61,585 nucleotides of DNA. Source: Myxococcales bacterium. Its GTDB lineage: Bacteria > Desulfobacterota > Binatia > HRBIN30 > BPIQ01. Position 1 is the first letter of the stretch. Every line of letters starts with the position of its first letter. Of the stretch, positions 17,896 to 39,794 are shown one piece after another. The translations under genes were made by a program, and so were the position numbers. The notes below the pieces were generated by a model. The model was not told the DNA's origin, searched no databases, and worked only from the letters and a program-made list of their open reading frames with translations. The stretch covers positions 1-61,585 of the forward strand of contig JBBIUR010000020.1 of the NCBI GenBank assembly GCA_037440145.1, in the 5' to 3' direction.

Positions 17896-17923
17896 GGCCC
17901 TGCAACCGGGATTGCCGGCGGCC

Positions 17924-18475: not shown

Positions 18476-18487
18476 CGGCTTTCCTCC

Positions 18488-19519: not shown

Positions 19520-19541
19520 CGCTTTCTCCCGCCCACTTTCG

Positions 19542-20453: not shown

Positions 20454-20466
20454 GGGCTCTGCGGTC

Positions 20467-21246
20467 TCAGGTGATCAGATACCCGCCATCCACGACGAGC
20501 GTGATGCCGGTGATGTAGCTCGCCGCGGGGCTAGCGAGAAAAAGGATCGCCGCGGCGATGTCCTCCGGCGTGGCCACGCGCCGCAGGGGAATTCTGGGCT
20601 CCAGGGCGGCGCGCACTCCCTGTTCGAACGCGGTGGCCGTGCCTGCGGTCAGCGTGGCTCCCGGGCAGACGGCGTTCACCGTGATCCCGTACCGGGCGAA
20701 TTCCAGCGCCGCGCTCTTCGTGAAGAGGTTCACGCCGCTTTTGGACGCGTTGTAGTGGGCGAGGCCCGGGAAGGCCGGGTGGAAAGACTCGATCGAGGAT
20801 ACGTTCACGATCCGCCCGCCCTTGCCGCCCGCGCGCATGAGGCGCGCGGCTTCGCGCGTGCAGAGGAACGTGCCGCGCAAGTTCACCTCCATCACCTGGT
20901 CCCACTCCGCAGCGGTCATGTCGAGGATCCGCTGCGACGGAAAGATCCCGGCGCTGTGGACGAGGATGTCGAGACGGCCCAGCTCCTGCTGCGTGCGGGC
21001 GAACATCTCCTCCACTTGAGCCTCCTGCGCCACGTCGGCCGAGACGGCCACTGCGCGCCGCCCTCCCCCGGCAATCTCTTCAGCGACGCGCTCCGCGCCG
21101 GCGCGATCCCGATCCCCTACGGCCACGTCCGCGCCGGCTTGCGCCAGGCGCAGCGCGGCGGCGCGCCCGATGCCGGAGGCACCCCCGGTCACCAGCGCCG
21201 CGCAGCCGCTCAAGTCGAAAAGCCGCTGAATTTCCGGATGGAGCAT
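20467..21246 (-). CDS. SDR family oxidoreductase
   Basis: ATG 21246 with AAGGAGG upstream. Motifs VTGGASGIGRA and YNASKSG (YxxxK); C-terminal VVDGGY. Confidence 0.85.
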   Translation of the reverse strand: MLHPEIQRLFDLSGCAALVTGGASGIGRAAALRLAQAGADVAVGDRDRAGAERVAEEIAGGGRRAVAVSADVAQEAQVEEMFARTQQELGRLDILVHSAGIFPSQRILDMTAAEWDQVMEVNLRGTFLCTREAARLMRAGGKGGRIVNVSSIESFHPAFPGLAHYNASKSGVNLFTKSAALEFARYGITVNAVCPGATLTAGTATAFEQGVRAALEPRIPLRRVATPEDIAAAILFLASPAASYITGITLVVDGGYLIT

Positions 21247-21280
21247 AAGCCCTCCTTTCGCAGGTGCCGAGCGCCGCGGG

Positions 21281-22426
21281 TCATCGCCGGTCCTCGCGCG
21301 CGGGGAGCAAGACGATGGCTTCGCCCGTAGTCGTGACGTCGCCGCGCTGGTTGACGGTCCACACTGCGCAGCGCACGGCGTGGCGTTTGGAGTCGATTTC
21401 CCGGTCGAGAACGAGCTTTTCCTCGACCCGCCCGTGGCACCACGTGGTGTCGCCGAGCAGGCTGAAACTCGGAAACCGCTGCGTGAGCCGGTGAAGGAAT
21501 CCGTCGTCCCCCATCCAGTTGGTGAGCATGTGGACGATCCAGCCCGTGCGCTCGTATCCGGCCTCGTACGCGCCCGGCAGGCCGAGGATCCGCTGCGAGC
21601 GCTCGTTGGACCAGTGGATGGCGACCGGCGCTTCCGGGATGCCCTGCTCGTTGATGAACGCGAGCCCCGGGTGCTTCTCGAAGAGCTCGAAGGCCAAGCG
21701 GTGGCCGACAAACCATCCTCCGGCGCCCACCCAGCTCTCGAACGCAAACTTGCTCACTTGGGTCGTCGGTCCCTTGACCACGAACGGAATCTCCTCGCCC
21801 TCGCGCACATCTTCCCACCACAGCGTTTCCGCGCCCCGCCGACGTTCCTTCTTGTAGTCGGCTTTGATCTTCTCGATTTCCTCTGGCGTGTAATGCGCGA
21901 GCTCGCGGTTTGCGTACTTGCTCGCCTGCTTCGCGGCGGCGCGCTCGAACCGGTGCCACGACGTCTTGTAGTTGGCGACGCTTTCCCCGCGCTGGTTCCA
22001 AATCGGGGTTTCGTAGTCCTGAACGACGGCGCGGCCTCCGGCGAACCGGCTCGGGACCACTTCGACCCGGCGCAGGTAGGAGCTCGAGTCGAGCACGTCG
22101 TCCAGCCGCAGGGGCTGGTACCACTCGAGCTCCGCCTCGCGCCAGATCGTATGGCAGCCAGGCAGGCCATCGGTGGCTCCGTTGGCGCGCTCGAGAAAGC
22201 CAATGATACTCGGCGGCGCGATGATCGTTCCGAAGCGGCTGCGGCGCGCGTATTCCGGGTCGAGATAGAGAGGGTTGTCGTCGCCGAGACCCAAAGCAAA
22301 GCGCCGGATCGTCTCCCGGGTCAGCCGGAGCGGGCGCCGGCGGAGCATGCTGCTGCCCTTACGCTCCACCCCGATGCGGGCTCGGAGCCGCTCGATAGCG
22401 TCATCGGTAATCTTGCCGAATTCCAC
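21281..22426 (-). CDS. MaoC-like (R)-hydratase/dehydratase with two hotdog domains
   Basis: GTG 22426 with GAGGAGG upstream. The N-terminal half has RFALGLGDDNPLYLDPEYARRSRFGTIIAPP (MaoC N-terminal type). A second hotdog-like half ends in HGRVEEK...AVWTVNQRGDVTTTGEA. Confidence 0.65.
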   Translation of the reverse strand: MEFGKITDDAIERLRARIGVERKGSSMLRRRPLRLTRETIRRFALGLGDDNPLYLDPEYARRSRFGTIIAPPSIIGFLERANGATDGLPGCHTIWREAELEWYQPLRLDDVLDSSSYLRRVEVVPSRFAGGRAVVQDYETPIWNQRGESVANYKTSWHRFERAAAKQASKYANRELAHYTPEEIEKIKADYKKERRRGAETLWWEDVREGEEIPFVVKGPTTQVSKFAFESWVGAGGWFVGHRLAFELFEKHPGLAFINEQGIPEAPVAIHWSNERSQRILGLPGAYEAGYERTGWIVHMLTNWMGDDGFLHRLTQRFPSFSLLGDTTWCHGRVEEKLVLDREIDSKRHAVRCAVWTVNQRGDVTTTGEAIVLLPAREDRR

Positions 22427-22483: not shown

Positions 22484-24871
22484 TCACCACGCGACTCCTT
22501 GCTCGGCCAGGTGTTGGACCTCCGCGGGGCAGAGCTTCAGCAGCTCGCCGAGCACGGCCTCGGTGTGTTCCCCCACTCGGGGCGACGGGCCCGCCGGGCC
22601 CGCTGCAGAGGCGCTGAACTGCCACGGTGTGCGGCACACCAGGCTTTTTCTGCCTTCGAAGCTCTCGGTCTCGTCCCACAAGCCGCGCGCGCGAAAGTGC
22701 GGGTGGGCGAGCACTTCTTCGATGCCGAGCACGGGCGCCGCGGCCACGCCGGCGCGCTGCAGGCGTTCGGCGAGCAGGTCGCGCGGAAACCCGGCCGTCC
22801 ACTCGGCCAGCCGGGCGTCGATTTCGCCAGCGCGGGCGCAGCGCGCTGGAGCATGGGCGAGGGTCTCGCTGCACGCCCACTCGGGCTTGCCCATCGCTTC
22901 CACCAGCGCCCGCCACTCGGCATCGCTGCCGACGGCGATGGCGATCCACTGCTCCTTGCCGGCCGCTGGGTAAATCCCGTGCGGCGCCATGTGCGGGTGG
23001 CGGTTGCCACGCCGCGCCGGAGGCTCTCCTCGCACCTGGAACTCGCAGAGGGGCTCGGCCACGAGCGCAGCAGCAGCTTCGATCTGCGAGAGGTCGATAA
23101 ACTGGCCCACCCCGGTGTTCTCCCGGTGCCACAGCGCCGCCAGGACGGCGATCACCGCTTGGATCGCCGCGTTTACGTCTCCGATGCCCAGCAGTTGCAG
23201 TCCGGAGGGCCCGGTGTCCGGATATCCCACGAGCGCTTCGAGCCCGGCGAAGCCCGTGGCAATGGTGGCGAACCCGCGCAAGTGCCGCAGCGGTCCCGAC
23301 TGCCCGGCCATGGCCATCGAGAGCGCGATGATGTCGGGCTTCGCGGCGCGCAGCGATTCGTAGTCGAGTCCGTTGCGTGCCATCACGCCGGCGGCGAAGT
23401 TGTCGAAAACGACGTCCGCGCAACTCGCCAGCCGCCGGGCCAGTTCCACGCCTTCCGATTTCTTGACGTTGATGGCCACGCTCCGCTTGCCGCGGTTCGC
23501 GTTGTGGAAAAACCGGCGCGCGTGTACCCAGTGGCGCATGAAGTCCAAGCGCTTGCGCGTCTCGATCTTGATGACGTCCATACCCAGATCCGCCAGGATT
23601 TGGCCCACCAGCGGGCCCGCCCAGTTGAAGCCGAACTCGATGGCGCGGTAGCCTTCCAGAGGGCGGCGCGGGGGAAGAGTCGCTGCGGCGCGCGGTTGCG
23701 GCCTGGGGTCCCAGCGGGGCGGGTCGGGCCGGGTTTCGGGCAGCGGTCCGAGCCGCCAGGGCGTGGCGGACATGGCGTATCCCATTCCGGGGAGCCGCAA
23801 AGTCGCCTTGCCGACGCGATAGGCGGTCCAGTAGCGCCGCGCTTCGAAGTGCGGCTCCTCCAGCAATTCGTCGGGGGTGAGGATCGGGCCCAGAACGAGG
23901 TTGGCGTCGCGTGCCATCTCCACCAGCTCGCGGCGCGTGAACTGGGTGAGCCACGGTATGAAGTACACATCGACCTCGTCGGCTCTCCGCCATCCGATAG
24001 CAACACCGTCCTGCAGTGCCGGGTCCTGTCGCGCCCAATCGGGTTCGCCCATGCAGCGGAGAAAGTTCCGCCACTGCTCGCGCGTCTGACTGGCCAGGAA
24101 GACGTATCCGTCCTTGCACGGATAAAAGCCCGAGGGGTAGATGAAGCCGTGCCGCTCGAGCCCGCGGCGGCGCCACTTGCCGCCGCTGCCGAGAACGAAG
24201 AGCGACATGCCGCCGCAGTAGAACGCCAAAACGTCCGCTTCGGCGATCTCCACTCGCTGCCCGTGGCCCGAGCGCCGCCGCGCCAGCAGCGCGGCCAGCG
24301 CGGCAGCGGCGCCATGCAGTCCCGCCTGGAGCGCGGGAAGGTCGTAGGGGAAGTGAAGTGGGGGCCGGTCTGGCTCGCCCAGGATCACGCTCGCCCCGCT
24401 TAGAGCCGACACGTGGATCTCGTACGCGCGCCAGTCGGCCAGGGGGCCGCTCTCGCCCAGCGAGCTGAGCGCAACGGCGATCAGTGCGGGATATGCCGCG
24501 CACAGGGAGTCGAGGTCGAACCCCCACGCGGCGCGCTCGCGAGGCGGCAGGTTCGTGACGAGCACGTCCGCTCCCGCTGCCAGAGCGGCGATCTGGGGAG
24601 CGTCGGCTGCCGGGTTTCCGCTCAGCTGGACGCACTGCTTTCCGGCGTTCAAGAAGGCGAACAGGGCTCCGTACTCGGCCGGTCCCCCCGGAGGGAAGGG
24701 AACGAAGCCGCGCGCTGGATCGCCGCCGGGCGGCTCGACCTTGACGACCTCTGCCCCGAGGTCGGCGAAGATGCGCGCGCAAAAGGGGGCGGAGACGCCC
24801 AGCCCGCATTCCAGCACGCGGATACCCGCCAGGGCGCTGCCGTTCTGTGACGCAGAGGTCCCAGAGCTCAT
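22484..24871 (-). CDS. tandem-fused family III (CaiB/BaiF) CoA-transferase, two complete repeats
   Basis: ATG 24871 overlaps the TGA of molybdoenzyme A2 as ATGA. The N-terminal signature occurs twice: LAGIRVLECGLGVSAPFCARIFADLGAEVVKVE and PLEGYRAIEFGFNWAGPLVGQILADLGMDVIKIE. 795 aa; the extended 1282-aa ORF is rejected. Confidence 0.75.
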   Translation of the reverse strand: MSSGTSASQNGSALAGIRVLECGLGVSAPFCARIFADLGAEVVKVEPPGGDPARGFVPFPPGGPAEYGALFAFLNAGKQCVQLSGNPAADAPQIAALAAGADVLVTNLPPRERAAWGFDLDSLCAAYPALIAVALSSLGESGPLADWRAYEIHVSALSGASVILGEPDRPPLHFPYDLPALQAGLHGAAAALAALLARRRSGHGQRVEIAEADVLAFYCGGMSLFVLGSGGKWRRRGLERHGFIYPSGFYPCKDGYVFLASQTREQWRNFLRCMGEPDWARQDPALQDGVAIGWRRADEVDVYFIPWLTQFTRRELVEMARDANLVLGPILTPDELLEEPHFEARRYWTAYRVGKATLRLPGMGYAMSATPWRLGPLPETRPDPPRWDPRPQPRAAATLPPRRPLEGYRAIEFGFNWAGPLVGQILADLGMDVIKIETRKRLDFMRHWVHARRFFHNANRGKRSVAINVKKSEGVELARRLASCADVVFDNFAAGVMARNGLDYESLRAAKPDIIALSMAMAGQSGPLRHLRGFATIATGFAGLEALVGYPDTGPSGLQLLGIGDVNAAIQAVIAVLAALWHRENTGVGQFIDLSQIEAAAALVAEPLCEFQVRGEPPARRGNRHPHMAPHGIYPAAGKEQWIAIAVGSDAEWRALVEAMGKPEWACSETLAHAPARCARAGEIDARLAEWTAGFPRDLLAERLQRAGVAAAPVLGIEEVLAHPHFRARGLWDETESFEGRKSLVCRTPWQFSASAAGPAGPSPRVGEHTEAVLGELLKLCPAEVQHLAEQGVAW

Positions 24872-27801
24872 CGGTCCCCCGTCGGATTGCGGGCACCCGA
24901 CGCGGCCGGCGCTGCGGCTATGCCGGTTGTGCCGGGAGCCCGCTCGACTTCCACCGCCACGCAGCGCGGGGTGTACGCCGGTTCCGCATAGTACATCCGG
25001 TGCTGCAAGTGCCCGTAGTCGCCGACAAGGTGCAGGGGTTTGATCGGCGAGGGCACGACCTCCTGGTGGCCCTTCCAGTGGCGAAACTGAAGCGGCTCCC
25101 AGGCGTGGTAGCTGATCACCGTGCCGGGCTGAACTGCGGGGCTGACTTTGAGCACGGCTTCGAACGCGCCGTGATCGTCGAGTCCCCGCGCCCGAGCATC
25201 GCGATCGTTCATGTAGAGGACCGGCTCTCCGCGCTGCAGCCGCAGCATGTACTCCTGATCGCGCCAGATGGCGTGGATAGACCAGCGCGTGTGGCCGCCC
25301 GTCAGGCGCAGCGGGTAGCTCCCGCCCGCTGCCGGTGGCTCCTTGTGGCAGGGTAAGGCCTCGCCCGCTTCGAGGAACCACGGGTGGTCCAGGTAAAACT
25401 GCTGCCGACCGGTCAGCGTGGGCCAGGGCTCCTTGTGCTCGACAAACCACTGCGACGGGTACACCGTGTCGCCCGGGTCGTAGTCGCTGCAGACGGCGTT
25501 GCCCGGACCGTACATACCGATGGACGCAATGCGCACGGCGCCGCGCTCGGCGGCCTCGGACCAGGAGAGGCCCGGGGTCTGAGCGGAATGGCTCAAGATG
25601 TGGTCGAGCGGCGCCCGGTCGTCTCGCCAGTCGAAGCGGCCGTGGAAGCTCCAGCGGTCGTACAGCGTCGCGAGGTCCCGCGCTTCGCCGAAGACACCGG
25701 TATAGCGCCCGACGCCTCGCTGGCGAGCGCGCTTCTGAATTTCCTCCGCGAGGCGGCCATAAATCTCCCACTCGCCCTTGGCTTCCCCGAGCGGCTCCAC
25801 CGCTTGCTCCCCGAACACGAGGTAGGGGAGGTAGCTCTGGCCGTACTTGATGCCCCGCTTTTCGTAGTAGGCCGCGGCGGGCAGTACGACGTCCGACTTC
25901 ATGGCGGTGGTGGACATGCGGAAGTTCACCGTGACGACGAGCTCCAGCTTGGGCCAGAGCACCTGCTCGGCGTGTTGCGGTGCCGCCCAGCGGCGGAGCG
26001 GGTTGGCGGCCGTGGCGAAGAAGATGCGGGGCTTCTTGTCCGCGCCGAGGTATAGCGGCATCCACTTTTTGGCCAGCGCTTCTTCGACGTACGCCGCCGG
26101 AGGCCGCCTCAGAGTCGGGTCGCACCACTCGGCTCGCCCCGCTACCTCGCGCATTCCGGCGTGGTGCCAGAGCCACAGGGCGTAGGGCTGGAACGGCCGC
26201 TCCTCGCGCGCAACTTGCCGCATGCGCTCCTCGATCTGGCGGACGCGCGGGCGGTACACCTTCAGGGCGAGCCGCTGCAGCGCGTTGAGCTCGAAACCAC
26301 TGGCCAGCGATTCGAATCCGAACAAGCCCCACATGGCGCTCAGCCGCAATCCGCCCCCGCGCTTTCCCTGATTTCCCGTCAGGGCCATGAGGAGGATCAT
26401 CGCGCGCTGCAGGAGATCGGTGTGGTAATGCTTGCAGGAGCCGAAGGAGGCGAGCAGGAGGGCCGCGCGCGCGCGCGCGAGAGCGCGCGCCACCCGGCGA
26501 ATGGTTTCGGCCCCGACTCCGGTGATTTCTGCGGCGCGCTCGGGGCGATAGTCCTGGAGCCGGTCGCGCAGGAGTTCGAAGACCGGCCGCACGGTCACCG
26601 TTTGCCCGCCGGCGGTCCGCACGGGGAATCGGCCGCGCAGCGCCGGACGGATCGGCGAGCCGAAGAAGCGGCCTGTGTGCAGCCGCAAGGACTGTGTCGG
26701 GTGGCCGAGCGAACCAGGTGCGGCGACGGGCGCGCGGCGCGCCTCGTCCCAGAAGTAGAACACGTCGTCGCGGCCGCCGTCCTTCAGATCGCTCTCGCGC
26801 AGAAAGCGCGCGGTGTCGTCGCGCACCAGAAGCGGCAAGTCGGTCTGTTCCCGCACGTACTCTTCCTGGAACAGGCCCTCGTGCACGAGCACCTGGGCCA
26901 TGCCCAGCGCCAGCGCCGCGTCCGTGCCGAGGCGGGGATGGAGCCAGAGGTCCGCGTGGATTGCAGTGGCGTTGTAATCAGGGGTCACGACGACGACCTG
27001 TGCGCCCCGGTAGCGCGCTTCCCACAGGAAGTGGGCTTCCGGAATGCGCGAGTAACTGGGATTCATGGACCAGACGAGGATGAAATCCGAGCGAAACCAG
27101 TCGTCCGCCGTGCCGTCGACGTTGACCATACCCCAGGTCTGCACCGCCCCGAGCGGCATGTCGCCCACGCCCGCCAGGGTGTCGAGGGTCGGCACTCCGA
27201 GCAGGGAAAAGAACAGCAGCTCGCCCGAGGTGTTGGGGCCGAAGTCGATGTTGGTTCCGAAGTCGTACGCAATCGCGGCGGGCCCGTCTTCGAGGCACAC
27301 GTCGATGACCTTGTCGGCGATTTTCCGCAGGGCTTCGTCCCACGAGATCCGCCGCCATTTGCCGGAGCCCCGCGGGCCCACGCGCTCGAGCGGGAACTTC
27401 AGGCGTGCGGGATGGTACGAGAGGGCGCTGTAGCAGGCGCCCTTTTGGCAGCCGCGCGGGCCGAAATCCGGCAGCGAGGAATTCGTCTGGTCGTAGACGG
27501 CTGCCTGTTCTTCGCGCCATGCGATGCCGTCTTTGACGTAGACGTCCCAACTGCATGCAGCGGCGCAGTTCGCGCGCAGGTGCGTGGCGCGCACCACGCG
27601 GTCCCACGTCCACTGCTTGCGGTAGAGGTCTTCCCAGGCGCGGTACGAGGCCACGGACGGGAGGCCGGAAGGCGAGGCGGGCTCGCTCGCACGCGCGGGG
27701 GCGGCCAGTCGCAACTGGCGCAGCGAGAGCAAGAGCGCGGCGGTGCCAGTGGTCTGGAGAAAGCGCCGCCGCGAGAGTTGGGGGTTCCAGCGCCCGCTCA
27801 C
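24868..27801 (-). CDS. Tat-signal molybdopterin oxidoreductase catalytic subunit (NarG/EbdA-like), paralogue A2
   Basis: GTG 27801 overlaps the upstream TGA as GTGA. Motifs SRRRFLQTTGTAALLLSL...ARA-SE, THLRANCAAAC...GPRGCQKGAC, GDMPLGAVQTWG, IPEAHFLWEARYRG and TPDYNATAIHADLWL. 977 aa. Confidence 0.8.
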   Translation of the reverse strand: MSGRWNPQLSRRRFLQTTGTAALLLSLRQLRLAAPARASEPASPSGLPSVASYRAWEDLYRKQWTWDRVVRATHLRANCAAACSWDVYVKDGIAWREEQAAVYDQTNSSLPDFGPRGCQKGACYSALSYHPARLKFPLERVGPRGSGKWRRISWDEALRKIADKVIDVCLEDGPAAIAYDFGTNIDFGPNTSGELLFFSLLGVPTLDTLAGVGDMPLGAVQTWGMVNVDGTADDWFRSDFILVWSMNPSYSRIPEAHFLWEARYRGAQVVVVTPDYNATAIHADLWLHPRLGTDAALALGMAQVLVHEGLFQEEYVREQTDLPLLVRDDTARFLRESDLKDGGRDDVFYFWDEARRAPVAAPGSLGHPTQSLRLHTGRFFGSPIRPALRGRFPVRTAGGQTVTVRPVFELLRDRLQDYRPERAAEITGVGAETIRRVARALARARAALLLASFGSCKHYHTDLLQRAMILLMALTGNQGKRGGGLRLSAMWGLFGFESLASGFELNALQRLALKVYRPRVRQIEERMRQVAREERPFQPYALWLWHHAGMREVAGRAEWCDPTLRRPPAAYVEEALAKKWMPLYLGADKKPRIFFATAANPLRRWAAPQHAEQVLWPKLELVVTVNFRMSTTAMKSDVVLPAAAYYEKRGIKYGQSYLPYLVFGEQAVEPLGEAKGEWEIYGRLAEEIQKRARQRGVGRYTGVFGEARDLATLYDRWSFHGRFDWRDDRAPLDHILSHSAQTPGLSWSEAAERGAVRIASIGMYGPGNAVCSDYDPGDTVYPSQWFVEHKEPWPTLTGRQQFYLDHPWFLEAGEALPCHKEPPAAGGSYPLRLTGGHTRWSIHAIWRDQEYMLRLQRGEPVLYMNDRDARARGLDDHGAFEAVLKVSPAVQPGTVISYHAWEPLQFRHWKGHQEVVPSPIKPLHLVGDYGHLQHRMYYAEPAYTPRCVAVEVERAPGTTGIAAAPAASGARNPTGDR

Positions 27802-30344
27802 TGCAAGACCCCCCGCGCCGTGAGCTCGTCGATCTCGTCCCGGGACATGCGGAGGAGTTCGCCGAAGACGTACGCGTTGTCTTCGCCGATGCGGCGGTAC
27901 GGCCCGAACAGGCACGGCGTCTCGGAGAAGACCAGCGGCAGGCGCGCTGCCAAGACGTCTGGGCCGCGCTCCCACTCGATGCCCGGGCGCTTGGGGTCGG
28001 CGACGAAATACGCCGTCGGGCGGTACAGAGCCCGGCTGGCGAGCTGGGGATCGGATGCGAGATCTTCGCCCTTGGCCACGATGCCCGCGGGAACGCCGGC
28101 TCGTTGCAGCGCGTCCATCAATGCGTGCTTTTCCCAGGTGCAGGTTGCGGCCGCGATCGCTCGGTCCAGTTCGCCCTCGTGCGCGCGACGCCGCTCCGCG
28201 GTGCGGAAGCGGTCGTCCTCGGCCCAGTCGGGGTGCCCGAGCACGCGGCACAGGGCGCGCCACTGCGGTTCCGTCCACACGGCCAGCGCGCACCACTCGT
28301 CCTCCCCTTTGCAGGGATAGGCATTGTGGGGCACCGCGATCGGGTCGTGATTGCCCCGCCGCGCGGGCAGCCGCGCGCCCGCCTGGTAGTCGAGGAGCGC
28401 GGTGGCGACGGTGCTGACTCCCGATCGGAAGATCGATCCCTCGATTCCCATTCCCATCCCCGTCTCGCGGCGCCGGTGCAGGGCGACTAGAACGGCCAGC
28501 GCCTGGAAAAGCGGCGTGTGGTAATCGGAATAGGCCGAGTTGAGGCAGCACGGGGGATCTTCGGGCTGGCCGCTCATCGTCGAGACGCCGCAGATGTGCT
28601 GGGCCATGATCCCGTAGAGCTTGTACCGCTCGTACGGGCCGCTGCCGAAGCCGCTCTGGAGCACCACGATGAGCCGCGGGTATTCTCGGCGCAGCTGTTC
28701 CAGATCGAGGCCCCAGCGGGCGAGAGCGTCGCGGCGGAAGTTGGTCAGGAAGACATCGGCAATGCCCAGCAGACGGCGGAGGATCGCGGCGCCTTCGGGT
28801 GTCCGCACGTCGAGAGTGATGCGGCGCTTGAGCGCCTGGTATTCCGGCTGCCCCATACCCCTGCCCCAAGGGGGCACGAAGGCGAGCTGGTCAGGGACCT
28901 TGTTGCTCTCCACCTTGATCACGGTAGCCCCGAGGGCCGCCAGGATTCGCCCCGTGAGCGGCAGGGCGATGAAGGGGCCGAACTCGACCACGCGCACGCC
29001 CTCGAGCAGCGCCACCCACGGCGCGTCGCGGCACGGCGGGGGCTCGGCCAGGTATCCAGCCCCTCGGCGCTGGGCTTGGTAGGGAAGCGCGCGCGCCCCG
29101 TCGCCCGCGCTGCCGGGTGCCGGGCCGATGACGCCGGCGGCGCGCAGGCTCTCGAATTCAGCGGCGGACATGCCCAGCTCGCGGCACAGGATTTCCTCGT
29201 TTGCTTCGCCGAGCTGAGGAGCGGCCCGGCTAGCAGTTGCCACCTCCGGGCCCAGGAGGTTCAGCGGGTAGCGGAGCGGCCCGACCACGGGGTGCTCGAG
29301 CGTCTTCCAGAAATTCGCCTCGGCCAGGGCGGGGTCCGCTAGCAGGTCCGCGATCGTGTTCACGGGCACGACCACCAGGTTGCGCCGCTGCCCCTCGCGG
29401 AACAGCTCCGCACGGGTCTGGCGCAGCGTGAAATCCAGCAGCACCGCCTCGATCAGATCGCGATGCGGGGCGCGCGCGTGAATGCCGCCGCGCAGCTCTT
29501 GGGCGAGGATCTCTTCGCGGCCCGTGACTTCGTAGAGCCACTGCGCGAGGACGTCCCACTCCCGGTCGGTGAAAATGCCAATGCCGACCCAGCCGTCGGC
29601 ACAGGGAAACACGCCGGCAGGGACGGACAGACTCGAGACCGGGCCCACGCGGACCACGTTTTTCTTCCGCACATTCCAGCAGAGCACCGGATGCTGCTCG
29701 AGGTAGAAGCTGAGCAGTGCCTCCTGCATCGAGATGTCGATGTGCTGGCCGCCGATGCCGTGCCAGTCGCGGTAGAACAGCGCCGCCACCGTGCCCAGTG
29801 CGGCGTACAGCGCGCCAGGAAAGCGCGACTGCTCGTTGCCGAGCCGCATGGGAGGGCCGTCCGGATCGCCTGTGACCTGCATGAACCCGCTGGTCGCCAG
29901 CGACACGATATCGCTCGCGAGGTATCCGCTGCGCGGCCCGCTTGCGCCGTACGGCGTGATCGACACCCAGACGAGGTGCGCGTTCGCCTCGTGCAGCGCC
30001 CTCCAGCTCAGGCCTTGGGCCTCGAGTTCGCCCGGCAGGAAATTTTCGACGAGCGCATCGGCAGTGCGGAGCAGGCGGAGGAACCAATCGCGGCCTCGCG
30101 AGTGGGCGATGTCGAGGGAAAGCGAGCGCTTGTTGGTGTTGAACGCGAGAAAGTCGAGACTCGTTTCGGCGCTGGCTTGGTCGCGGAAAAACGGCGGCCG
30201 CCACCGGCTCGGATCGCCCGCGGGCGGCTCGACCTTGATCACCTCGGCACCGAGGTCGGCCAGTAGCTTGCCGGCGAACGCCCCGGTTGCGTCGGTGAGG
30301 TCGAGGATGCGGTACCGCGGCAGGAAGAACTCGCTCGCCGGCAT
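27798..30344 (-). CDS. tandem-fused family III CoA-transferase, two complete repeats
   Basis: Signature twice: RYRILDLTDATGAFAGKLLADLGAEVIKVE and LLEGVRVVEFGPFIALPLTGRILAALGATVIKVE. ATG 30344 lies 11 nt after GGAGGAG. GTG 30356 is the ORF-track start but abuts the RBS. Confidence 0.75.
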   Translation of the reverse strand: MPASEFFLPRYRILDLTDATGAFAGKLLADLGAEVIKVEPPAGDPSRWRPPFFRDQASAETSLDFLAFNTNKRSLSLDIAHSRGRDWFLRLLRTADALVENFLPGELEAQGLSWRALHEANAHLVWVSITPYGASGPRSGYLASDIVSLATSGFMQVTGDPDGPPMRLGNEQSRFPGALYAALGTVAALFYRDWHGIGGQHIDISMQEALLSFYLEQHPVLCWNVRKKNVVRVGPVSSLSVPAGVFPCADGWVGIGIFTDREWDVLAQWLYEVTGREEILAQELRGGIHARAPHRDLIEAVLLDFTLRQTRAELFREGQRRNLVVVPVNTIADLLADPALAEANFWKTLEHPVVGPLRYPLNLLGPEVATASRAAPQLGEANEEILCRELGMSAAEFESLRAAGVIGPAPGSAGDGARALPYQAQRRGAGYLAEPPPCRDAPWVALLEGVRVVEFGPFIALPLTGRILAALGATVIKVESNKVPDQLAFVPPWGRGMGQPEYQALKRRITLDVRTPEGAAILRRLLGIADVFLTNFRRDALARWGLDLEQLRREYPRLIVVLQSGFGSGPYERYKLYGIMAQHICGVSTMSGQPEDPPCCLNSAYSDYHTPLFQALAVLVALHRRRETGMGMGIEGSIFRSGVSTVATALLDYQAGARLPARRGNHDPIAVPHNAYPCKGEDEWCALAVWTEPQWRALCRVLGHPDWAEDDRFRTAERRRAHEGELDRAIAAATCTWEKHALMDALQRAGVPAGIVAKGEDLASDPQLASRALYRPTAYFVADPKRPGIEWERGPDVLAARLPLVFSETPCLFGPYRRIGEDNAYVFGELLRMSRDEIDELTARGVLQ

Positions 30345-30362
30345 CGGCGCCTGCACTCCTCC

Positions 30363-31493
30363 TCAAGCATTTTGCGAGGTTGCCCCTTCGGCCGGCGCTG
30401 GGCTCTCCCCCAGGATCTCGCAAGCCTGCTGGATCATTTCCGCCACCACCTCGGCAGCGGGCCGGAGCTTCTGCAGCATGCCGACGATTTGCCCAGCGGC
30501 GGTGGCACACACGTCCTTCAGGCGCGCCCGCCCGGCGCCGGCCAGCACCGGCGCCGAAAGCAGCATCTGATAGGGCATCGGGAGAGCCTCGAGACCCGAG
30601 GCTTCGAACTCTTCGACCCACTTGTTCTTCAGGACCCGCATGGGCTTCCCGGTGAGCGCGCGGCTGACGACGGTGCCCTCCTCGTCGCTTTCGAGCAACG
30701 CCTCCTTCAGGAACCCCGAAAGCGCCGCTTCGTGCGTGGCGCAAAAGACCGTGCCGCACCACACGCCCGCGGCCCCTAGTGCGAGCGACGCTACCAGCGC
30801 TCGCCCGTCGGCGATGCCGCCGGCTGCGAGCACGGGCGTGCCGCGGGCGGCGTCGACGGCTTGGGGCACCAGTGCCATCGTGCCGATGCGCCCGTTGTGC
30901 CCTCCGGCTTCGGTGCCCTGGGCGACGATGATGTCGACGCCTCCGTCGCGCATGCGCCGCACGTGTTTCACGTTGCCGGCAATGCCGATGACGCGGATGC
31001 CGCGCCCGTGGAACTCGCGGACGAACGGCGACGGGTCGCCGAGTCCTGCGGCGTAAACTGGGACCTTCTGGTCCATGATGACTTCGAGCTGTTTTTCGAA
31101 GAAATCGTGGGTCCAGCCCCACGACAGCTCGTGCGCGAGGCCGTCCCGCGGGGGCTCGGGGATGCCGTACTTTTCCTGGAAGCGGCGCGCGAAGTCGATG
31201 TGGCTCTGAGGGATCTTCTGCTTTAGCTCGCCCTTCGAACCCGAGCGCGGCACGCGGGCGGGAAGGAGCGTGTCGACTCCGAAGGGCGCCGAGGTGAGGC
31301 GGCGCGTCTGTTCGATCCACTGATTGAGGAGATCCGCGGGAAGCGGGGCGCCGCCGAGAATGCCGAGGCCGCCGGCATTCGAGACCGCTGCAGCGAGTTC
31401 GGGGGACGAAATGCGCCCCATCCCCGCAAGGAAGATCGGGTAGCGGATCCCCAGCATGTCGCAGACGGGCGTGTGGAGGGTGAGGCGGTTCAT
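30363..31493 (-). CDS. nitronate monooxygenase / FabK-like FMN-dependent oxidoreductase
   Basis: ATG 31493 overlaps the AOR TGA as ATGA. Motifs IRYPIFLAGMG, IVAQGTEAGGH and PVLAAGGIADGR. Confidence 0.75.
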   Translation of the reverse strand: MNRLTLHTPVCDMLGIRYPIFLAGMGRISSPELAAAVSNAGGLGILGGAPLPADLLNQWIEQTRRLTSAPFGVDTLLPARVPRSGSKGELKQKIPQSHIDFARRFQEKYGIPEPPRDGLAHELSWGWTHDFFEKQLEVIMDQKVPVYAAGLGDPSPFVREFHGRGIRVIGIAGNVKHVRRMRDGGVDIIVAQGTEAGGHNGRIGTMALVPQAVDAARGTPVLAAGGIADGRALVASLALGAAGVWCGTVFCATHEAALSGFLKEALLESDEEGTVVSRALTGKPMRVLKNKWVEEFEASGLEALPMPYQMLLSAPVLAGAGRARLKDVCATAAGQIVGMLQKLRPAAEVVAEMIQQACEILGESPAPAEGATSQNA

Positions 31494-33469
31494 GGGCTGA
31501 TTCCTCCGCGGTCGGGGGCGAGCAGGCCGGCGGCTTCTAGGCGCGCGGCCACGTCGTCCAGTCCCAGGTCTACTAGGCGCGCCCGCGTGGGCCGGCCTTC
31601 CGCATCCCAGCCCCGGAGGCGGTAGAGGTTTTCGAGCTCCCGGGTGTACTCCTCGCGGTCGAGCACGGCGCCTTCGAACCGGCCGTGCTCGACGGGCACG
31701 CCGTAGTAGTTGTCGGGGAAGTAGTCGTGCTCTTTGCGAAAGCCGTGCAGGAGTTGCATGGCCTGCTCGATCTGGCGGATGCGGTCGCCCGCGCGGTGCA
31801 GGTCTTCCCACGAGACGTCGATGCCCGTAGTGGCGCTGAAGCAGTGCGCGAAGTCCTCGAGGCCCATTCGCATTTGCGCCCACGTGGTGAAGCGCTGGCA
31901 GATGCCGAGGCTGTTGCAGACGGTTACGTGGTTGTCGGAGTAGAACTTGGCGAGCGACTTGTCGTCGAAGACCATCGGGTTGCCGATGTACGTATCGGCC
32001 CACTGGCGCGCGATGGGTTCCGGGATTCCGATGCGGCGGAACCGCTCGTAGTCCACGTTGCCCTCGGCCAGCAAGGTGTCCGTGTTCAGGACGTCGCACT
32101 CGCGGATGTCGAGGCCGCGGGAGAACGCGAGGCCCTTCAGGGGCCGGAAATCGGCCGGTACTTCCCTCCGCTTCTTGTTCGCGCGGATCAGCCGCATCAG
32201 TCGTTCGGGTTCCACCCCGCGTCGCCGAGCGAGCTCGCGGGCGGCGTGAAAGATTCCGTCGGCCAGCAGCGCGCCGTATCCGCGGCGCTCGGCGATCTGC
32301 ACGATCAACTCCTCTTGGGCCGCGGCATTGCCCCACTCTAACGGGAGGCCGCCGGTGTCCTCAGGGGTTAGCAGGCCTTCCTGCCACCAGTGCATCGAGG
32401 TGGCCACCGCGGTGCCGATGGCGATGCTGTCGAAGCCGAGGTCGTTGACGAGGTTGGTGAGGTGGAGAATGGTGGCGTAGTCGGAGACGCCGCACGCCGG
32501 GCCGAGGGGGATGATCGTGCCCGCTTCCCCGCCCGAGCCTTGCTCGCCGGCGAACCGGCCCTGGCGGATGTGCCAGTGGTGGTCGCAGTGCTGGAAGCAC
32601 GCGTGGCAGGCCTTGGAGGCAGTGGCGAATTCCTTCCGGAAGCGCTCGACGCTCAAGTTCGCGTAAGGGAAATCGCGCGGCTGGACGTTGTACTGGCAGT
32701 TCAGCACCCCCGAGAGCTCGACCAGCCACTTCGTGCCCTGCTCGCCGAAGCGCCGGAAGCGAGGTTCGGCGCGGTTTTTCTCGAACACAGCCGCGAAGGC
32801 GGCAAAGGCGTCTTGCGGCCGCGCCACCCGCACGCCGCGGGTTCCCTTGACCACAATCGCTTTTAAGTTCTTGGCGCCGAAGACCGCTCCTGTGGAGCCT
32901 GCGGACGGGGCGCGGAAGAGGTCGCACGTGGGCATCGACCCGTGGGCGCGATTTTCCCCGGCGGGCCCGATAATCAGGCGCGCGTACTGCGCCAGCCCCG
33001 CCTCGGCCTGCAGGAGGCGGTCGGTTTCGCGCACGCGCTTGCCCCACAGGTGGCGCGCATCCCGCAGCTCGACCGCGTCGTCGGCGATCCGGAGGTAGAC
33101 CGGGTGCGGCGCGCGGCCCGTGATCACGATCGCATCGTAGTTCGCGTATTTCAGCTCCGCGCCGAACTGGCCTCCCGCGTTGGCGTCGAGGTAGCCGCCG
33201 AGCGATGGGCTCAAGCCCACGGCCACGGTGACGCGCCCCGACCCTGGCGTCAGGGTTCCCGTCAGCGCGCCGGGGGCGATGCAGAGGACGTTTTTCGGGC
33301 TGAAGGGATCGCGCTCGGCGAAGTCGTGCTCGTCGAAGATCAGCCGCTCGGCAAATCCCTGGCCGCCCAGGTACTGCTCGGCAAAGCGCGGGTCGAGGTC
33401 CTGGCACCGAATGGTTCCGGAGCTCAGATCGACGCGCAGGATCCTGCCGGTCCAGCCGCACAGGGCCAT
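31490..33469 (-). CDS. aldehyde:ferredoxin oxidoreductase (AOR) family tungsto/molybdopterin enzyme
   Basis: ATG 33469 (MALCGWTGRILRVDLSSG) with GGAGG upstream; it shares one nt with the ferredoxin TGA (TGATG). Motifs GGQGFAERL, IGPAGEN and GxDS-type segments (DLGFDSIAIG); 659 aa. Confidence 0.8.
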   Translation of the reverse strand: MALCGWTGRILRVDLSSGTIRCQDLDPRFAEQYLGGQGFAERLIFDEHDFAERDPFSPKNVLCIAPGALTGTLTPGSGRVTVAVGLSPSLGGYLDANAGGQFGAELKYANYDAIVITGRAPHPVYLRIADDAVELRDARHLWGKRVRETDRLLQAEAGLAQYARLIIGPAGENRAHGSMPTCDLFRAPSAGSTGAVFGAKNLKAIVVKGTRGVRVARPQDAFAAFAAVFEKNRAEPRFRRFGEQGTKWLVELSGVLNCQYNVQPRDFPYANLSVERFRKEFATASKACHACFQHCDHHWHIRQGRFAGEQGSGGEAGTIIPLGPACGVSDYATILHLTNLVNDLGFDSIAIGTAVATSMHWWQEGLLTPEDTGGLPLEWGNAAAQEELIVQIAERRGYGALLADGIFHAARELARRRGVEPERLMRLIRANKKRREVPADFRPLKGLAFSRGLDIRECDVLNTDTLLAEGNVDYERFRRIGIPEPIARQWADTYIGNPMVFDDKSLAKFYSDNHVTVCNSLGICQRFTTWAQMRMGLEDFAHCFSATTGIDVSWEDLHRAGDRIRQIEQAMQLLHGFRKEHDYFPDNYYGVPVEHGRFEGAVLDREEYTRELENLYRLRGWDAEGRPTRARLVDLGLDDVAARLEAAGLLAPDRGGISP

Positions 33470-37681: not shown

Positions 37682-37696
37682 GCTCCTTCCGCCTGG

Positions 37697-39784: not shown

Positions 39785-39794
39785 GCCTGTGCTC

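What the first reader, a model, noticed from the sequence alone, without database searches (positions are those of the whole stretch)
22484..30356. Molybdoenzyme A2 is translationally coupled on both sides to fused double CoA-transferases
Seen: on the minus strand the order is CoA-transferase (30344-27798), A2 (27801-24868), CoA-transferase (24871-22484).
The A2 GTG overlaps the upstream stop as GTGA (27801-27798). The A2 stop overlaps the downstream ATG as ATGA (24871-24868).
A2 carries an apparently complete Tat signal (SRRRFLQTTGTAALLLSLRQLRLAAPARA-SE).
Inference: a cofactor enzyme destined for Tat export is stoichiometrically co-translated with two enzymes that can only work on cytoplasmic CoA thioesters. 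That is topologically odd.
One reading is that the substrate is hydroxylated outside the cell and activated inside. The other is that the Tat peptide is a retained chaperone-binding remnant (as in NarG) and this is a cytoplasmic EbdA-like enzyme acting on CoA esters. I know of no characterised example of the second case.
Basis: partly seen in the sequence, partly recalled or inferred. Interest (0 to 1): 0.8.

Follow-up and report, generated by a model that had tools for sequence, protein, structure and literature searches.

The report
Exported molybdenum hydroxylase beside fused CoA-transferases
An ethylbenzene-dehydrogenase-like molybdenum hydroxylase subunit with a normal export signal sits between two double-length CoA-transferase genes in one long breakdown operon of an uncultured Binatia bacterium. 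This mix of exported and cytoplasmic enzymes is already known from anaerobic steroid and hydrocarbon degradation, so it is not a topological puzzle.

Summary
On the minus strand lie a fused double family-III CoA-transferase (CoAT1), an EbdA/S25DH-like molybdenum alpha subunit (A2), then a second fused CoA-transferase (CoAT2). The junctions are GTGA and ATGA overlaps.

- The twin-arginine leader is intact in A2, in its orthologues, in all five alpha paralogues of the window and in most of 120 homologues.
- The Mo-ligand Asp and the FS0 cluster ligands are conserved.
- Overlaps of 1 or 4 nt occur at 7 of 19 junctions of this operon, so they are not special to A2.
- CoAT1 followed by alpha is conserved in four independent orthologous loci, but with 10-88 nt gaps.
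- The A2/CoAT2 ATGA junction recurs in one independent close relative. In a more distant Binatia genome the two modules are convergent.
- No beta, gamma or delta genes lie in the window. Other Binatia genomes carry a gamma-beta set beside other alphas, as in Sterolibacterium, where several alphas share beta/gamma.

Best reading: hydroxylation in the periplasm, then oxidation, CoA activation and beta-oxidation in the cytoplasm. The substrate is unknown, possibly steroid or isoprenoid. This is a new member of a known kind and of modest interest.

The parts
27798..30356 (-). CoAT1: single-chain double family-III CoA-transferase. The start is GTG 30356 or, fitting orthologues better, ATG 30344.
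   Evidence: Two PF02515 domains. The N-half is closest to PDB 9FN0 chain A and the C-half to 9FN0 chain B, the benzylsuccinate CoA-transferase. Orthologues 65-71% identical lie directly upstream of the alpha in L001, L002, L003 and L005. The N-half has a conserved Asn where 9FN0_A has Asp. The C-half keeps the Asp.
24868..27801 (-). A2: EbdA/S25DH-like Mo-bisMGD hydroxylase alpha subunit (type II DMSO reductase family)
   Evidence: PF00384 + PF01568 and TIGR03479 at 941 bits. Full-length match to EbdA 2IVF_A at 587 bits, with the Mo-ligand Asp aligned (A2 D214). H74, C79, C83, C118 and D214 are invariant across 14 relatives.
27685..27801 (-). Twin-arginine (Tat) leader of A2, residues 1-39, with ARA/SE as the likely cleavage site
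   Evidence: SRRRFLQ, then a hydrophobic stretch, then ARA. The motif is conserved in orthologues P0002-P0008 and in most of 120 homologues, and in all five alphas of the window. PF10518 gives 16.6 bits, below the 22.7 cutoff but within the range of its relatives.
27798..27801 (-). GTGA stop/start overlap between CoAT1 and A2
   Evidence: It is not conserved: orthologues have gaps of 10-88 nt.
24868..24871 (-). ATGA stop/start overlap between A2 and CoAT2
   Evidence: The same junction occurs in the independent contig L089.
22484..24871 (-). CoAT2: second single-chain double family-III CoA-transferase, about 30% identical to CoAT1
   Evidence: Two PF02515 domains. Both halves keep the Asp. Its conserved partners are the downstream MaoC-SDR-PNPOx-ETF-OYE block (L088, L089). 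It is 41-42% identical to a protein of Steroidobacter denitrificans that lies next to MaoC, Amidohydro_2 and OYE genes.
30363..39952 (-). Upstream conserved module: hydantoinase A (37697-39952), hydantoinase B (35927-37681), LUD/Fer4/CCG protein (33930-35927), Fer4 protein (33469-33933), tungsten-type AOR (31490-33469), NMO/FabK-like protein (30363-31493)
   Evidence: Pfam and NCBIfam, PDB, start mapping. The same order precedes CoAT1 and alpha in L001-L005.
8886..22426 (-). Downstream module: MaoC-like hydratase, SDR, two luciferase-like oxidoreductases, PNPOx-like protein, ETF-alpha, NarI/Fer4/CCG membrane protein, ETF-beta fused to an OYE flavoenzyme, acyl-CoA dehydrogenase, Amidohydro_2, alpha/beta hydrolase
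   Evidence: Pfam and NCBIfam. The block is conserved behind CoAT2 orthologues.
2973..5852 (+). Paralogous alpha subunit with a TRRDFL leader (start approximate)
   Evidence: 62% identical to A2.
43208..48970 (+). Two tandem paralogous alpha subunits (43208-46066 and 46073-48970), both with RRxFL leaders

Best explanation
The three genes are consecutive cistrons of one roughly 31-kb catabolic operon of an uncultured Binatia bacterium.

What each part does:
- A2 is the substrate-binding alpha subunit of an EBDH/S25DH-type, water-dependent Mo hydroxylase.
- It is made with a functional twin-arginine leader. In the cytoplasm it is loaded with Mo-bisMGD and the FS0 cluster, and it is joined to beta/gamma subunits encoded elsewhere in the genome. 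Several alpha paralogues share these subunits.
- The complex is exported by Tat. In the periplasm it hydroxylates a hydrophobic alkyl, isoprenoid or steroid-like substrate.
- The product re-enters the cytoplasmic side. There it is oxidised (SDRs, tungsten AOR) and/or carboxylated (hydantoinase-type ATP enzyme) to a carboxylic acid.
- The single-chain BbsEF-like CoA-transferases convert the acid to a CoA thioester.
- Beta-oxidation-like enzymes then take over (ACAD/ETF, MaoC hydratase, SDR, thiolases).

The 4-nt overlaps are ordinary operon compaction, not a sign of a physical complex.

Shown here: gene order, overlaps, domains, cofactor ligands, leader conservation and synteny. Inferred: export, sharing of beta/gamma, the order of pathway steps and the substrate class.
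For: Identity of A2:
- Full-length EbdA-like alpha with the Mo Asp and FS0 ligands conserved.

Leader:
- Conserved as protein sequence in orthologues 71-75% identical, in most of 120 homologues and in all five paralogues in the window. It is therefore translated and under selection.

Overlaps:
- Present at 7 of 19 junctions of the operon.
- No promoter or terminator signal above chance inside the operon.

Synteny:
- HydAB-CCG-Fer4-AOR-NMO-CoAT1-alpha is conserved in four independent loci, with variable CoAT1/alpha spacing.
- A2/CoAT2 with the ATGA overlap recurs in L089.
- The two modules are convergent in Binatia GcC5-6.

Beta, gamma and delta genes:
- They flank alphas of this family in 37 of 85 loci. 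These include Binatia L058 and the Myxococcales locus L007, which also carries Rieske/cytochrome b and multihaem cytochrome c genes.
- The genome of L058 also has an orphan alpha near a BbsE/F-like CoA-transferase pair (L037).

Precedents:
- S. denitrificans has 8 alphas sharing fewer beta/gamma sets, and S25DH1 is alpha1-beta3-gamma3 (PMC6016249).
- Periplasmic S25DH/S26DH alternate with cytoplasmic steps (PMC7411048).
- Hydroxylation, then ketone formation, then carboxylation is the logic proposed for AhyABC (PMC7803848).

CoA-transferases:
- The two halves match the two chains of benzylsuccinate CoA-transferase.
Against: - No beta, gamma or delta gene lies in the window or within 10 kb of any of the 10 alpha loci that have a CoA-transferase nearby (0 of 10, against 37 of 85 overall). 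The partners of this particular alpha are therefore assumed, not seen.
- I could not retrieve the rest of this MAG.
- The Tat HMM score is below Pfam's threshold, and no dedicated Tat or signal-peptidase predictor was available.
- The substrate and the order of steps are guesses. A2 scores equally on EbdA and perchlorate reductase in PDB (587.5 and 585.1 bits), so its nearest solved relatives say nothing about substrate. Its tblastn identity to the alphas of a Sterolibacterium MAG is 47% (L031).
- The recurrent closeness of alpha and CoA-transferase genes would also fit an enzyme acting on CoA esters.
Confidence: 0.75

Rival explanations
1. Cytoplasmic enzyme. The twin-arginine leader serves only as a chaperone-binding or proofreading handle (as in NarG). 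A2 stays in the cytoplasm and hydroxylates the CoA thioester made by the adjacent transferases, possibly in a complex with them.
For: - The alpha of this orthogroup always lies directly after a fused CoA-transferase.
- Alphas near CoA-transferases never have beta, gamma or delta genes nearby (0 of 10).
- A leaderless and therefore probably cytoplasmic clade of the same family exists in MAGs labelled Chloroflexi/Chloroflexota and Microthrixaceae.
- A Mo enzyme acting on a CoA ester is known: PadBCD (PMC4453571, ref. 8).
Against: - The RR pair, the hydrophobic stretch and the AxA-like motif are all intact and conserved, unlike a decayed remnant.
- The leaderless clade has a distinct N-terminus and a His-to-Cys change in FS0 that A2 lacks.
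- All five paralogues in the window carry the same kind of leader, whether or not a CoA-transferase is adjacent.
- Overlaps and adjacency are generic operon features.
- FS0 is kept, implying a beta-type electron partner.
- NarG model score is 315 bits against a cutoff of 1084.
Confidence: 0.05
2. Exported but membrane-tethered. The leader is not cleaved and anchors A2 (with beta/gamma) to the outer face of the cytoplasmic membrane, so that a lipid-embedded substrate is handed directly across the membrane to the cytoplasmic enzymes.
For: - Arg residues follow the short hydrophobic stretch (LSLRQLRL).
- The likely substrates are very hydrophobic. Flip-flop across the membrane is invoked for steroids (PMC7411048).
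Against: - Small-residue motifs typical of signal-peptidase sites (ARA, AAA, AHA, ASA) are conserved after the hydrophobic stretch in orthologues.
- EBDH is a soluble periplasmic enzyme (PMC8840923), and recombinant S25DH isoenzymes were produced in a soluble, active form (PMC6016249).
Confidence: 0.12
3. Adjacency without a shared pathway. Binatia genomes are crowded with CaiB/BaiF-type transferases, so A2 and the transferases are neighbours by rearrangement and serve different substrates.
For: - CoAT2 belongs to a separate conserved module (CoAT2-MaoC-SDR-PNPOx-ETF-OYE).
- That module is convergent to the alpha in GcC5-6 and absent after the alpha in L001, L003 and L005.
- More than 2400 relatives of CoAT2 were found. 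Most of the 120 listed are about 790-800 aa, the fused length.
Against: - CoAT1-alpha is kept in four independent orthologous loci.
- Alpha and CoA-transferase genes co-occur in further, non-orthologous arrangements (L016, L020, L037, L051, L052, L063).
- The two modules remain neighbours even where they are rearranged.
Confidence: 0.08

Closest known systems
Steroid C25/C26 dehydrogenases (S25DH1-4, S26DH1-2) of Sterolibacterium denitrificans
   Same: - Type II DMSO-reductase alpha with a Tat leader.
- Many alpha paralogues per genome, several encoded without their own beta/gamma and sharing a common set (PMC6016249).
- Periplasmic hydroxylation alternates with cytoplasmic ATP/CoA steps (PMC7411048).
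- Neighbouring genes here include families seen around a CoAT2 homologue in the steroid degrader Steroidobacter denitrificans: MaoC hydratase, OYE flavoenzyme and Amidohydro_2. [quoted passage not shown]
   Different: - Only 47% tblastn identity to the alphas of a Sterolibacterium MAG (L031).
- Host is Binatia, not Proteobacteria.
- Acid activation is assigned to CoA ligases in S. denitrificans, whereas fused family-III CoA-transferases sit beside the alpha here.
- No 25-hydroxysteroid kinase or 1-testosterone dehydrogenase genes were seen in the window.
- The substrate is untested.
Ethylbenzene dehydrogenase EbdABC(D) of Aromatoleum aromaticum (PDB 2IVF) and the ethylbenzene pathway
   Same: - Full-length alignment at 587 bits, including the leader, the FS0 motif and the Mo Asp.
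- Soluble periplasmic enzyme (PMC8840923).
- From my own knowledge of the pathway: Mo hydroxylase, then SDR, then a hydantoinase-family carboxylase, then CoA activation, then thiolase. The window holds a member of each of these classes.
   Different: - ebdA is followed by ebdB, ebdC and ebdD, whereas here beta, gamma and delta are absent from the locus.
- Activation is by a CoA ligase in the ethylbenzene pathway and by a CoA-transferase here.
- The hydantoinase pair scores best on caprolactamase (530 and 247 bits), well below every curated cutoff.
Benzylsuccinate CoA-transferase BbsEF (PDB 9FN0)
   Same: Family III CoA-transferase built from two different homologous subunits. The N-half of both window proteins matches chain A and the C-half matches chain B.
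   Different: - Here the two subunits are fused into one 795-852 aa chain by a linker of variable length.
- The match is distant: about 200 bits for each half of CoAT1, and 201 (C-half) and 114 (N-half) bits for CoAT2.
- No NCBIfam equivalog cutoff is reached.
- The CoAT1 N-half has Asn in place of the chain-A Asp.
- No fumarate-adding glycyl-radical enzyme is present in the window.
Putative anaerobic alkane hydroxylase AhyABC of Desulfococcus oleovorans Hxd3
   Same: EbdA-like enzyme proposed to hydroxylate an unactivated methylene. This is followed by ketone formation and carboxylation (PMC7803848), which is the logic suggested by the hydantoinase pair in this operon.
   Different: ahyA is described as part of an ahyABC set.
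Respiratory nitrate reductase NarGHI (cytoplasm-facing, vestigial Tat motif)
   Same: Same superfamily and FS0/Asp architecture.
   Different: - A2 keeps an intact RR leader.
- NarG model score is 315 bits against a cutoff of 1084.
- No NarH, NarJ or NarI set is adjacent.
- The only NarI-like domain in the operon is fused to Fer4/CCG domains and sits next to ETF-alpha.

Membership tests
Type II DMSO reductase family alpha subunit, EbdA/S25DH-like hydroxylase branch | Molybdopterin oxidoreductase and MGD-binding domains over the full length | tested here: met
   PF00384 (130 bits) and PF01568. 2IVF_A aligned over residues 10-954.
Type II DMSO reductase family alpha subunit, EbdA/S25DH-like hydroxylase branch | Score above the curated cutoff of the subfamily model TIGR03479 | tested here: not met
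   941 bits against a cutoff of 984.75, a narrow miss. It is by far the best model, ahead of EbdA (613) and NarG (315).
Type II DMSO reductase family alpha subunit, EbdA/S25DH-like hydroxylase branch | Aspartate ligand to Mo (EbdA Asp223) | tested here: met
   A2 D214 in GVGDMPLGA aligns with IGD223 of 2IVF_A. It is invariant in 14 relatives.
Type II DMSO reductase family alpha subunit, EbdA/S25DH-like hydroxylase branch | N-terminal FS0 [4Fe-4S] motif (His/Cys...Cys-x3-Cys...Cys) | tested here: met
   H74, C79, C83 and C118 are invariant and aligned with EbdA.
Type II DMSO reductase family alpha subunit, EbdA/S25DH-like hydroxylase branch | Twin-arginine export leader | tested here: met
   SRRRFLQ, a hydrophobic stretch and ARA. 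Conserved in orthologues and paralogues. By HMM it is only sub-threshold: PF10518 at 16.6 bits against 22.7.
Type II DMSO reductase family alpha subunit, EbdA/S25DH-like hydroxylase branch | Beta (4 FeS), gamma (haem b, EB_dh) and delta (NarJ-like) partners encoded in the genome | tested here: inconclusive
   None in the window or within 10 kb of the orthologues. Present beside paralogous alphas in other Binatia MAGs, for example L058. The rest of this MAG could not be reached.
Type II DMSO reductase family alpha subunit, EbdA/S25DH-like hydroxylase branch | Water-dependent C-H hydroxylation activity and periplasmic location | not testable with these tools
   Needs enzyme assays and localisation experiments.
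Family III (CaiB/BaiF) CoA-transferase, heteromeric BbsEF type | CoA_transf_3 fold, two different homologous units per active enzyme | tested here: met
   Two PF02515 hits in each protein. N-half matches 9FN0_A and C-half matches 9FN0_B.
Family III (CaiB/BaiF) CoA-transferase, heteromeric BbsEF type | Catalytic aspartate in the active site | tested here: inconclusive
   The Asp aligned with that of 9FN0_B is kept in the CoAT1 C-half (SAYSDYH). In the alignment with CoAT1, both CoAT2 halves also have an Asp at this position (YDLPA and GIGDVNA). The CoAT1 N-half has a conserved Asn-Glu where 9FN0_A has Asp. Which Asp is catalytic in BbsEF was not verified.
Family III (CaiB/BaiF) CoA-transferase, heteromeric BbsEF type | Assignment to a characterised specificity (NCBIfam equivalog cutoff) | tested here: not met
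   Best models score 367-375 bits against a cutoff of 750 (succinate-glutarate CoA-transferase). All others are also below their cutoffs.
NarG-type cytoplasm-facing enzyme with a vestigial Tat motif | Degenerate leader lacking a functional twin-arginine motif | tested here: not met
   The RR pair is intact and conserved.
NarG-type cytoplasm-facing enzyme with a vestigial Tat motif | NarG equivalog score and adjacent narHJI genes | tested here: not met
   TIGR01580 at 315 bits against a cutoff of 1084. No narH, narJ or narI genes are adjacent.
Phenylacetyl-CoA:acceptor oxidoreductase PadBCD (Mo enzyme acting on a CoA ester) | Sequence relationship to PadB and adjacent padCD-like genes | not tested
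   No PadB reference sequence or model was available. It is known only from the literature (PMC4453571, ref. 8).

The most novel reading that the evidence does not exclude
The A2 orthogroup is always an 'orphan' alpha placed directly after a single-chain BbsEF-like CoA-transferase and never near beta, gamma or delta genes. It might not be exported. Its leader would then serve only for chaperone-assisted cofactor loading, and the enzyme would hydroxylate an acyl-CoA made by its neighbours in the cytoplasm, using a non-canonical electron partner. That would be a cytoplasmic EBDH-type hydroxylase acting on CoA thioesters.
Probability: 0.05. Interest if true: 0.85.

Novelty: new member of a known kind. 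Interest (0 to 1): 0.3.

Why it matters
As a topological paradox it does not matter, because the arrangement follows known logic: an exported Mo hydroxylase and cytoplasmic downstream enzymes in one operon.

What is mildly useful:
- Uncultured Binatia and Myxococcota MAGs carry many EBDH/S25DH-like alpha subunits. Five lie in this 61-kb contig, embedded in large catabolic islands.
- These islands pair the alphas repeatedly with a widespread but uncharacterised single-chain version of the two-subunit BbsEF-type CoA-transferase.
- If the island degrades sterols or other isoprenoid lipids without oxygen, it would extend this chemistry beyond Proteobacteria. The literature I could search describes it only in Proteobacteria.
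- It would also supply new hydroxylases of biotechnological interest, in the way S25DH is used for 25-hydroxyvitamin D3 synthesis.

Tried and rejected
- Looking up the window's own A2 protein to get the assembly accession and the rest of the MAG: not on record.
It returned only relatives at 60% identity or less, so the close orthologues and any beta/gamma genes of their genomes were not captured that way.
- Beta-subunit homologues carried no taxon names that tie them to the genomes holding A2 orthologues.
- The gamma subunit of Binatia L058 shows no obvious N-terminal hydrophobic signal. I rejected this as a localisation test. As far as I recall, EbdC also lacks its own signal and is exported with EbdA; I did not check this.
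- I tested whether the hydantoinase pair could be the ATP-dependent 25-hydroxysteroid kinase. It cannot: that kinase is most similar to putative phosphotransferase-family proteins (PMC8449060).
- I tested whether the two CrtI-like flavoproteins behind the alpha tandem could be the steroid delta-24 desaturase. They cannot: that enzyme has no similarity to phytoene desaturases (PMC11061730).
- Whether the AOR is a BamB-like benzoyl-CoA reductase: it is closer to classical AOR 1AOR (283 bits) than to BamB 4Z3W (176 bits).
- Supplementary tables of PMC11780191, needed to check SRAH orthology, are not held.
- Rfam found no riboswitch or other RNA family.
- Promoter and terminator scans gave nothing above chance.
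- No paper in the library links Binatia with EBDH/S25DH-like enzymes.


Full report
**1. Observation**

- CoAT1 runs from 30356 (GTG), or 30344 (ATG; this fits the N-termini of orthologues better), to 27798.
- A2 runs from 27801 to 24868.
- CoAT2 runs from 24871 to 22484.

The junctions read ttgcaGTGAgc and accgATGAgc, so both 4-nt overlaps are real. Each transferase has two CoA_transf_3 domains.

A2 has the Molybdopterin and Molydop_binding domains. Its best NCBIfam model is the type II DMSO reductase alpha subfamily (941 bits, cutoff 984.75), followed by EbdA (613) and NarG (315). The leader MSGRWNPQLSRRRFLQTTGTAALLLSLRQLRLAAPARA/SE is present.

**2. What A2 is**

A2 aligns over its full length with ethylbenzene dehydrogenase alpha (2IVF_A, 587 bits), leader included. 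The Mo-ligand Asp223 of EbdA corresponds to A2 D214. In an alignment of 14 relatives, H74, C79, C83, C118 (the FS0 cluster) and D214 are invariant. A2 is therefore a complete, apparently functional EBDH/S25DH-type hydroxylase alpha subunit. It needs an electron-transfer partner for FS0.

**3. The leader**

- An RRxF/L motif is found in most of the 120 best homologues, including the orthologues P0002-P0008 (71-75% identity). It is followed by a hydrophobic stretch and a small-residue motif such as AAA, AHA or ASA.
- All five alpha genes of the window carry such a leader: TRRDFL, SRRGFL, TRRQFL, TRREFL and SRRRFL.
- This segment is conserved as protein. In the orthologues it lies after an intergenic gap. 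It is therefore translated as part of the alpha. The only start codon upstream of the RR pair in A2 is GTG 27801; the next in-frame candidates are TTG codons inside the hydrophobic stretch.
- Pfam's TAT_signal model gives 16.6 bits (cutoff 22.7). This is within the range of the paralogues and orthologues (11.6-22.3). A leaderless relative gives no hit.
- The same family contains a clearly different, leaderless clade. It is named Chloroflexi in one protein record. The loci that lack the leader region are labelled Chloroflexi/Chloroflexota, Thermoflexus, Anaerolineaceae, Dehalococcoidia and Microthrixaceae. Its N-terminus resembles MTEAGL.LSALG, and the first FS0 ligand is Cys rather than His.
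- A2 does not look like that clade, nor like a decayed NarG-type remnant.

**4. The overlaps**

I mapped the starts along the minus-strand array from 39952 to 8886. Overlaps of 1 or 4 nt occur at 7 of 19 junctions: HydB/CCG, CCG/Fer4, Fer4/AOR, AOR/NMO, CoAT1/A2, A2/CoAT2 and ETF-alpha/NarI-CCG. From HydB to CoAT2, six of seven consecutive junctions overlap. Some of these join proteins with no reason to be stoichiometric partners. No promoter-like or terminator-like sites above chance interrupt the array. The overlaps reflect a compact operon in a high-GC genome. They are not a specific coupling of A2 to the transferases. That stop/start overlap does not enforce 1:1 output is general knowledge, not something tested here.

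**5. Synteny**

The nearest relatives are MAGs labelled Candidatus Binatia or 'Deltaproteobacteria bacterium'.

- Four independent orthologous loci (L001, L002, L003 with its duplicate L004, and L005) keep this order: hydantoinase A/B, LUD/Fer4/CCG, Fer4, AOR, NMO, sometimes PNPOx, double CoA-transferase, alpha.
- In these loci the CoAT1/alpha spacing is 10, 12, 88 and 19 nt. After the alpha there is either nothing, an SDR, or genes on the opposite strand.
- The left pair is therefore conserved. The overlap and the right-hand transferase are not.
- CoAT2 has its own conserved partners: MaoC-like hydratase, SDR, PNPOx, ETF and OYE.
- In Binatia GcC5-6 the CoAT2 module lies on the same contig as the A2 orthologue, but convergent to it.
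- In L089, an independent JGI contig whose CoAT2 is 86% identical, the first 165 nt encode an A2-like C-terminus. Its stop overlaps the CoAT2 ATG as ATGA.
- The full triplet is thus a young, lineage-specific arrangement. It is real, not an assembly artefact.

Across 85 non-redundant loci of the family:
- Family-III CoA-transferases lie within 10 kb of the alpha in 10. These include non-orthologous arrangements, such as L052 (alpha followed after 35 nt by a fused double transferase) and L016, L037 and L063.
- Beta, gamma or delta genes lie nearby in 37 of 85 loci, but in none of those 10.

**6. Where the partners are**

The window holds five alpha genes, one of them disrupted, and no beta, gamma or delta gene. 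The Myxococcales locus L007 shows the classical set: alpha, cytochrome b, gamma (EB_dh), beta, delta, a Rieske/cytochrome b complex, a multihaem cytochrome c, and two more alphas. Binatia STL-DESB4 has gamma-beta-alpha-alpha on one contig (L058). On another contig (L037) it has an orphan alpha near a BbsE/F-like transferase pair.

This is the pattern described for Sterolibacterium denitrificans. That organism has eight alpha paralogues and fewer beta/gamma sets, and S25DH1 is alpha1-beta3-gamma3 (PMC6016249). I could not reach the remainder of this MAG. For A2 itself the partners are therefore inferred.

**7. The transferases**

The N-half of each protein matches chain A of benzylsuccinate CoA-transferase (9FN0) and the C-half matches chain B. 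They are single-chain versions of a two-subunit family-III enzyme. The linker varies in length; L003 has about 100 extra residues.

In the CoAT1 orthogroup the N-half has a conserved RLGNEQSRF where chain A has Asp. The C-half keeps the Asp (SAYSDYH), so probably only one canonical site per chain is active. At the aligned positions CoAT2 has an Asp in both halves. No characterised specificity can be assigned. More than 2400 relatives of CoAT2 were found at E<=1e-50. Most of the 120 listed are about 790-800 aa, the fused length, and they include proteins from Steroidobacter denitrificans and Azoarcus.

**8. Likely function**

Context genes:
- a hydantoinase-family ATP enzyme, closest to caprolactamase and acetophenone carboxylase but far below their cutoffs;
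- a classical-type tungsten AOR with its own Fer4 and GlpC-like CCG proteins;
- SDRs;
- acyl-CoA dehydrogenases with ETF and a membrane NarI/CCG oxidoreductase;
- MaoC hydratases and thiolases, including an SCP-x/'lipid-transfer' type;
- OYE/BaiCD-like flavoenzymes;
- an Amidohydro_2 protein.

This fits the following sequence. The substrate is hydroxylated in the periplasm. The product is oxidised to an aldehyde or ketone. The AOR oxidises the aldehyde, or the ATP enzyme carboxylates the ketone, to give an acid. A CoA-transferase activates the acid, and beta-oxidation follows. The logic is that of the ethylbenzene, p-cymene and sterol side-chain routes and the proposed Ahy alkane route (PMC7411048, PMC7803848).

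There is a steroid or isoprenoid hint. The window's Amidohydro_2, OYE, MaoC and CoAT2 are 62, 50, 46 and 41% identical to a clustered set in Steroidobacter denitrificans. [quoted passage not shown] Orthology to SRAH itself was not tested, and no 1-testosterone dehydrogenase is present in the window. The substrate therefore remains open.

**9. Verdict**

The 'topological oddity' dissolves. The anaerobic cholesterol pathway explicitly alternates between Tat-exported S25DH/S26DH and cytoplasmic steps (PMC7411048), and EBDH is periplasmic (PMC8840923).

The cytoplasmic-remnant reading is not excluded. It is supported only by the recurrent adjacency and by the absence of local beta/gamma genes. I give it about 5%.

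The finding is a new member of a known kind, in an uncultured phylum and in an uncharacterised operon. Interest is modest (0.3).

Noticed in passing
window 2973-5852 (+), 41082-43226 (+), 43208-46066 (+), 46073-48970 (+), 24868-27801 (-): Five EbdA/S25DH-like alpha subunit genes lie in one 61.6-kb contig, all with RRxFL leaders. No beta, gamma or delta subunit gene lies anywhere in the window. This is the 'many alphas, few beta/gamma sets' pattern known from Sterolibacterium denitrificans.
   Followed up: yes
window 41082-43226 (+): The first alpha of the plus-strand tandem looks disrupted. The N-terminal part (leader, FS0, start of the Mo domain) is in one frame. The C-terminal part (ORF 42406-43173) is in another frame and has an internal deletion of roughly 250 residues (...YYHGGLKELVDRPTGGHTRWSIHS...). 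It is a likely pseudogene or an assembly error.
   Followed up: partly
P0085, P0088, P0090-P0095, P0097-P0102; loci L022, L034, L035, L044, L047, L069: A clade about 55% identical to A2 lacks any twin-arginine leader and has Cys instead of His as the first FS0 ligand (GTCNRADCIAAC). P0093 is named Chloroflexi. The loci are labelled Chloroflexi, Thermoflexus, Anaerolineaceae, Dehalococcoidia and Microthrixaceae. L034, L035, L047 and L069 have gamma-beta-delta genes directly downstream. These look like cytoplasmic, or otherwise-targeted, EBDH-type enzymes.
   Followed up: partly
window 29150-30356 (-), N-half of CoAT1; L001, L002, L003, L005: In the CoAT1 orthogroup the N-terminal half carries a strictly conserved RLGNEQSRF where benzylsuccinate CoA-transferase chain A has Asp. 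The C-half keeps the Asp. This suggests a pseudo-heterodimer with one canonical active site. The inter-half linker varies by about 100 residues between orthologues.
   Followed up: partly
window 9946-10881 (-); L090 13426-14343 (Steroidobacter denitrificans CP011971): The Amidohydro_2 gene at the end of the operon is 62% identical to one in the anaerobic steroid degrader Steroidobacter denitrificans. That gene lies in a cluster with homologues of CoAT2 (41%), MaoC (46%) and the OYE flavoenzyme (50%). [quoted passage not shown] Orthology to SRAH was not established.
   Followed up: partly
window 12088-14901 (-): ETF-beta is fused in frame to an OYE/2,4-dienoyl-CoA-reductase-like Fe-S flavoenzyme, giving a 937-aa protein. 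In Binatia GcC5-6 (L088) ETF-beta (292 aa) and the OYE enzyme (651 aa) are separate adjacent genes. This is either a real fusion or a lost stop codon.
   Followed up: no
window 14951-16906 (-): A 651-aa protein combines a NarI-like membrane domain, Fer4 and CCG domains. It overlaps the ETF-alpha stop by 4 nt. It is a probable ETF:quinone oxidoreductase of the DsrMK/HdrD type. It is present in L089 but absent from the corresponding block in L088.
   Followed up: no
window 48906-52022 (+): Two adjacent phytoene-desaturase-family (CrtI/CrtD-like) flavoproteins lie directly downstream of the alpha tandem. Behind them come a pimeloyl-CoA-dehydrogenase-like ACAD pair, an SCP-x-type 'lipid-transfer' thiolase and a thiolase. 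This suggests desaturation and side-chain beta-oxidation of an isoprenoid-like substrate. They are not related to the steroid delta-24 desaturase (PMC11061730).
   Followed up: partly
window 31490-35927 (-): A classical-type tungsten aldehyde:ferredoxin oxidoreductase is preceded by its own 154-aa polyferredoxin and a 665-aa LUD/Fer4/CCG (GlpC-like) protein. All three are joined by 1- or 4-nt overlaps, and the arrangement is conserved in every orthologous locus. This is a possible AOR electron-output module.
   Followed up: partly
85 non-redundant loci of the family (L001-L087): Alpha genes with a family-III CoA-transferase within 10 kb never have beta, gamma or delta genes within 10 kb (0 of 10, against 37 of 85 overall). 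This suggests two classes of alpha loci: 'core' clusters with the electron-transfer subunits, and 'satellite' alphas embedded in substrate-specific catabolic operons.
   Followed up: partly
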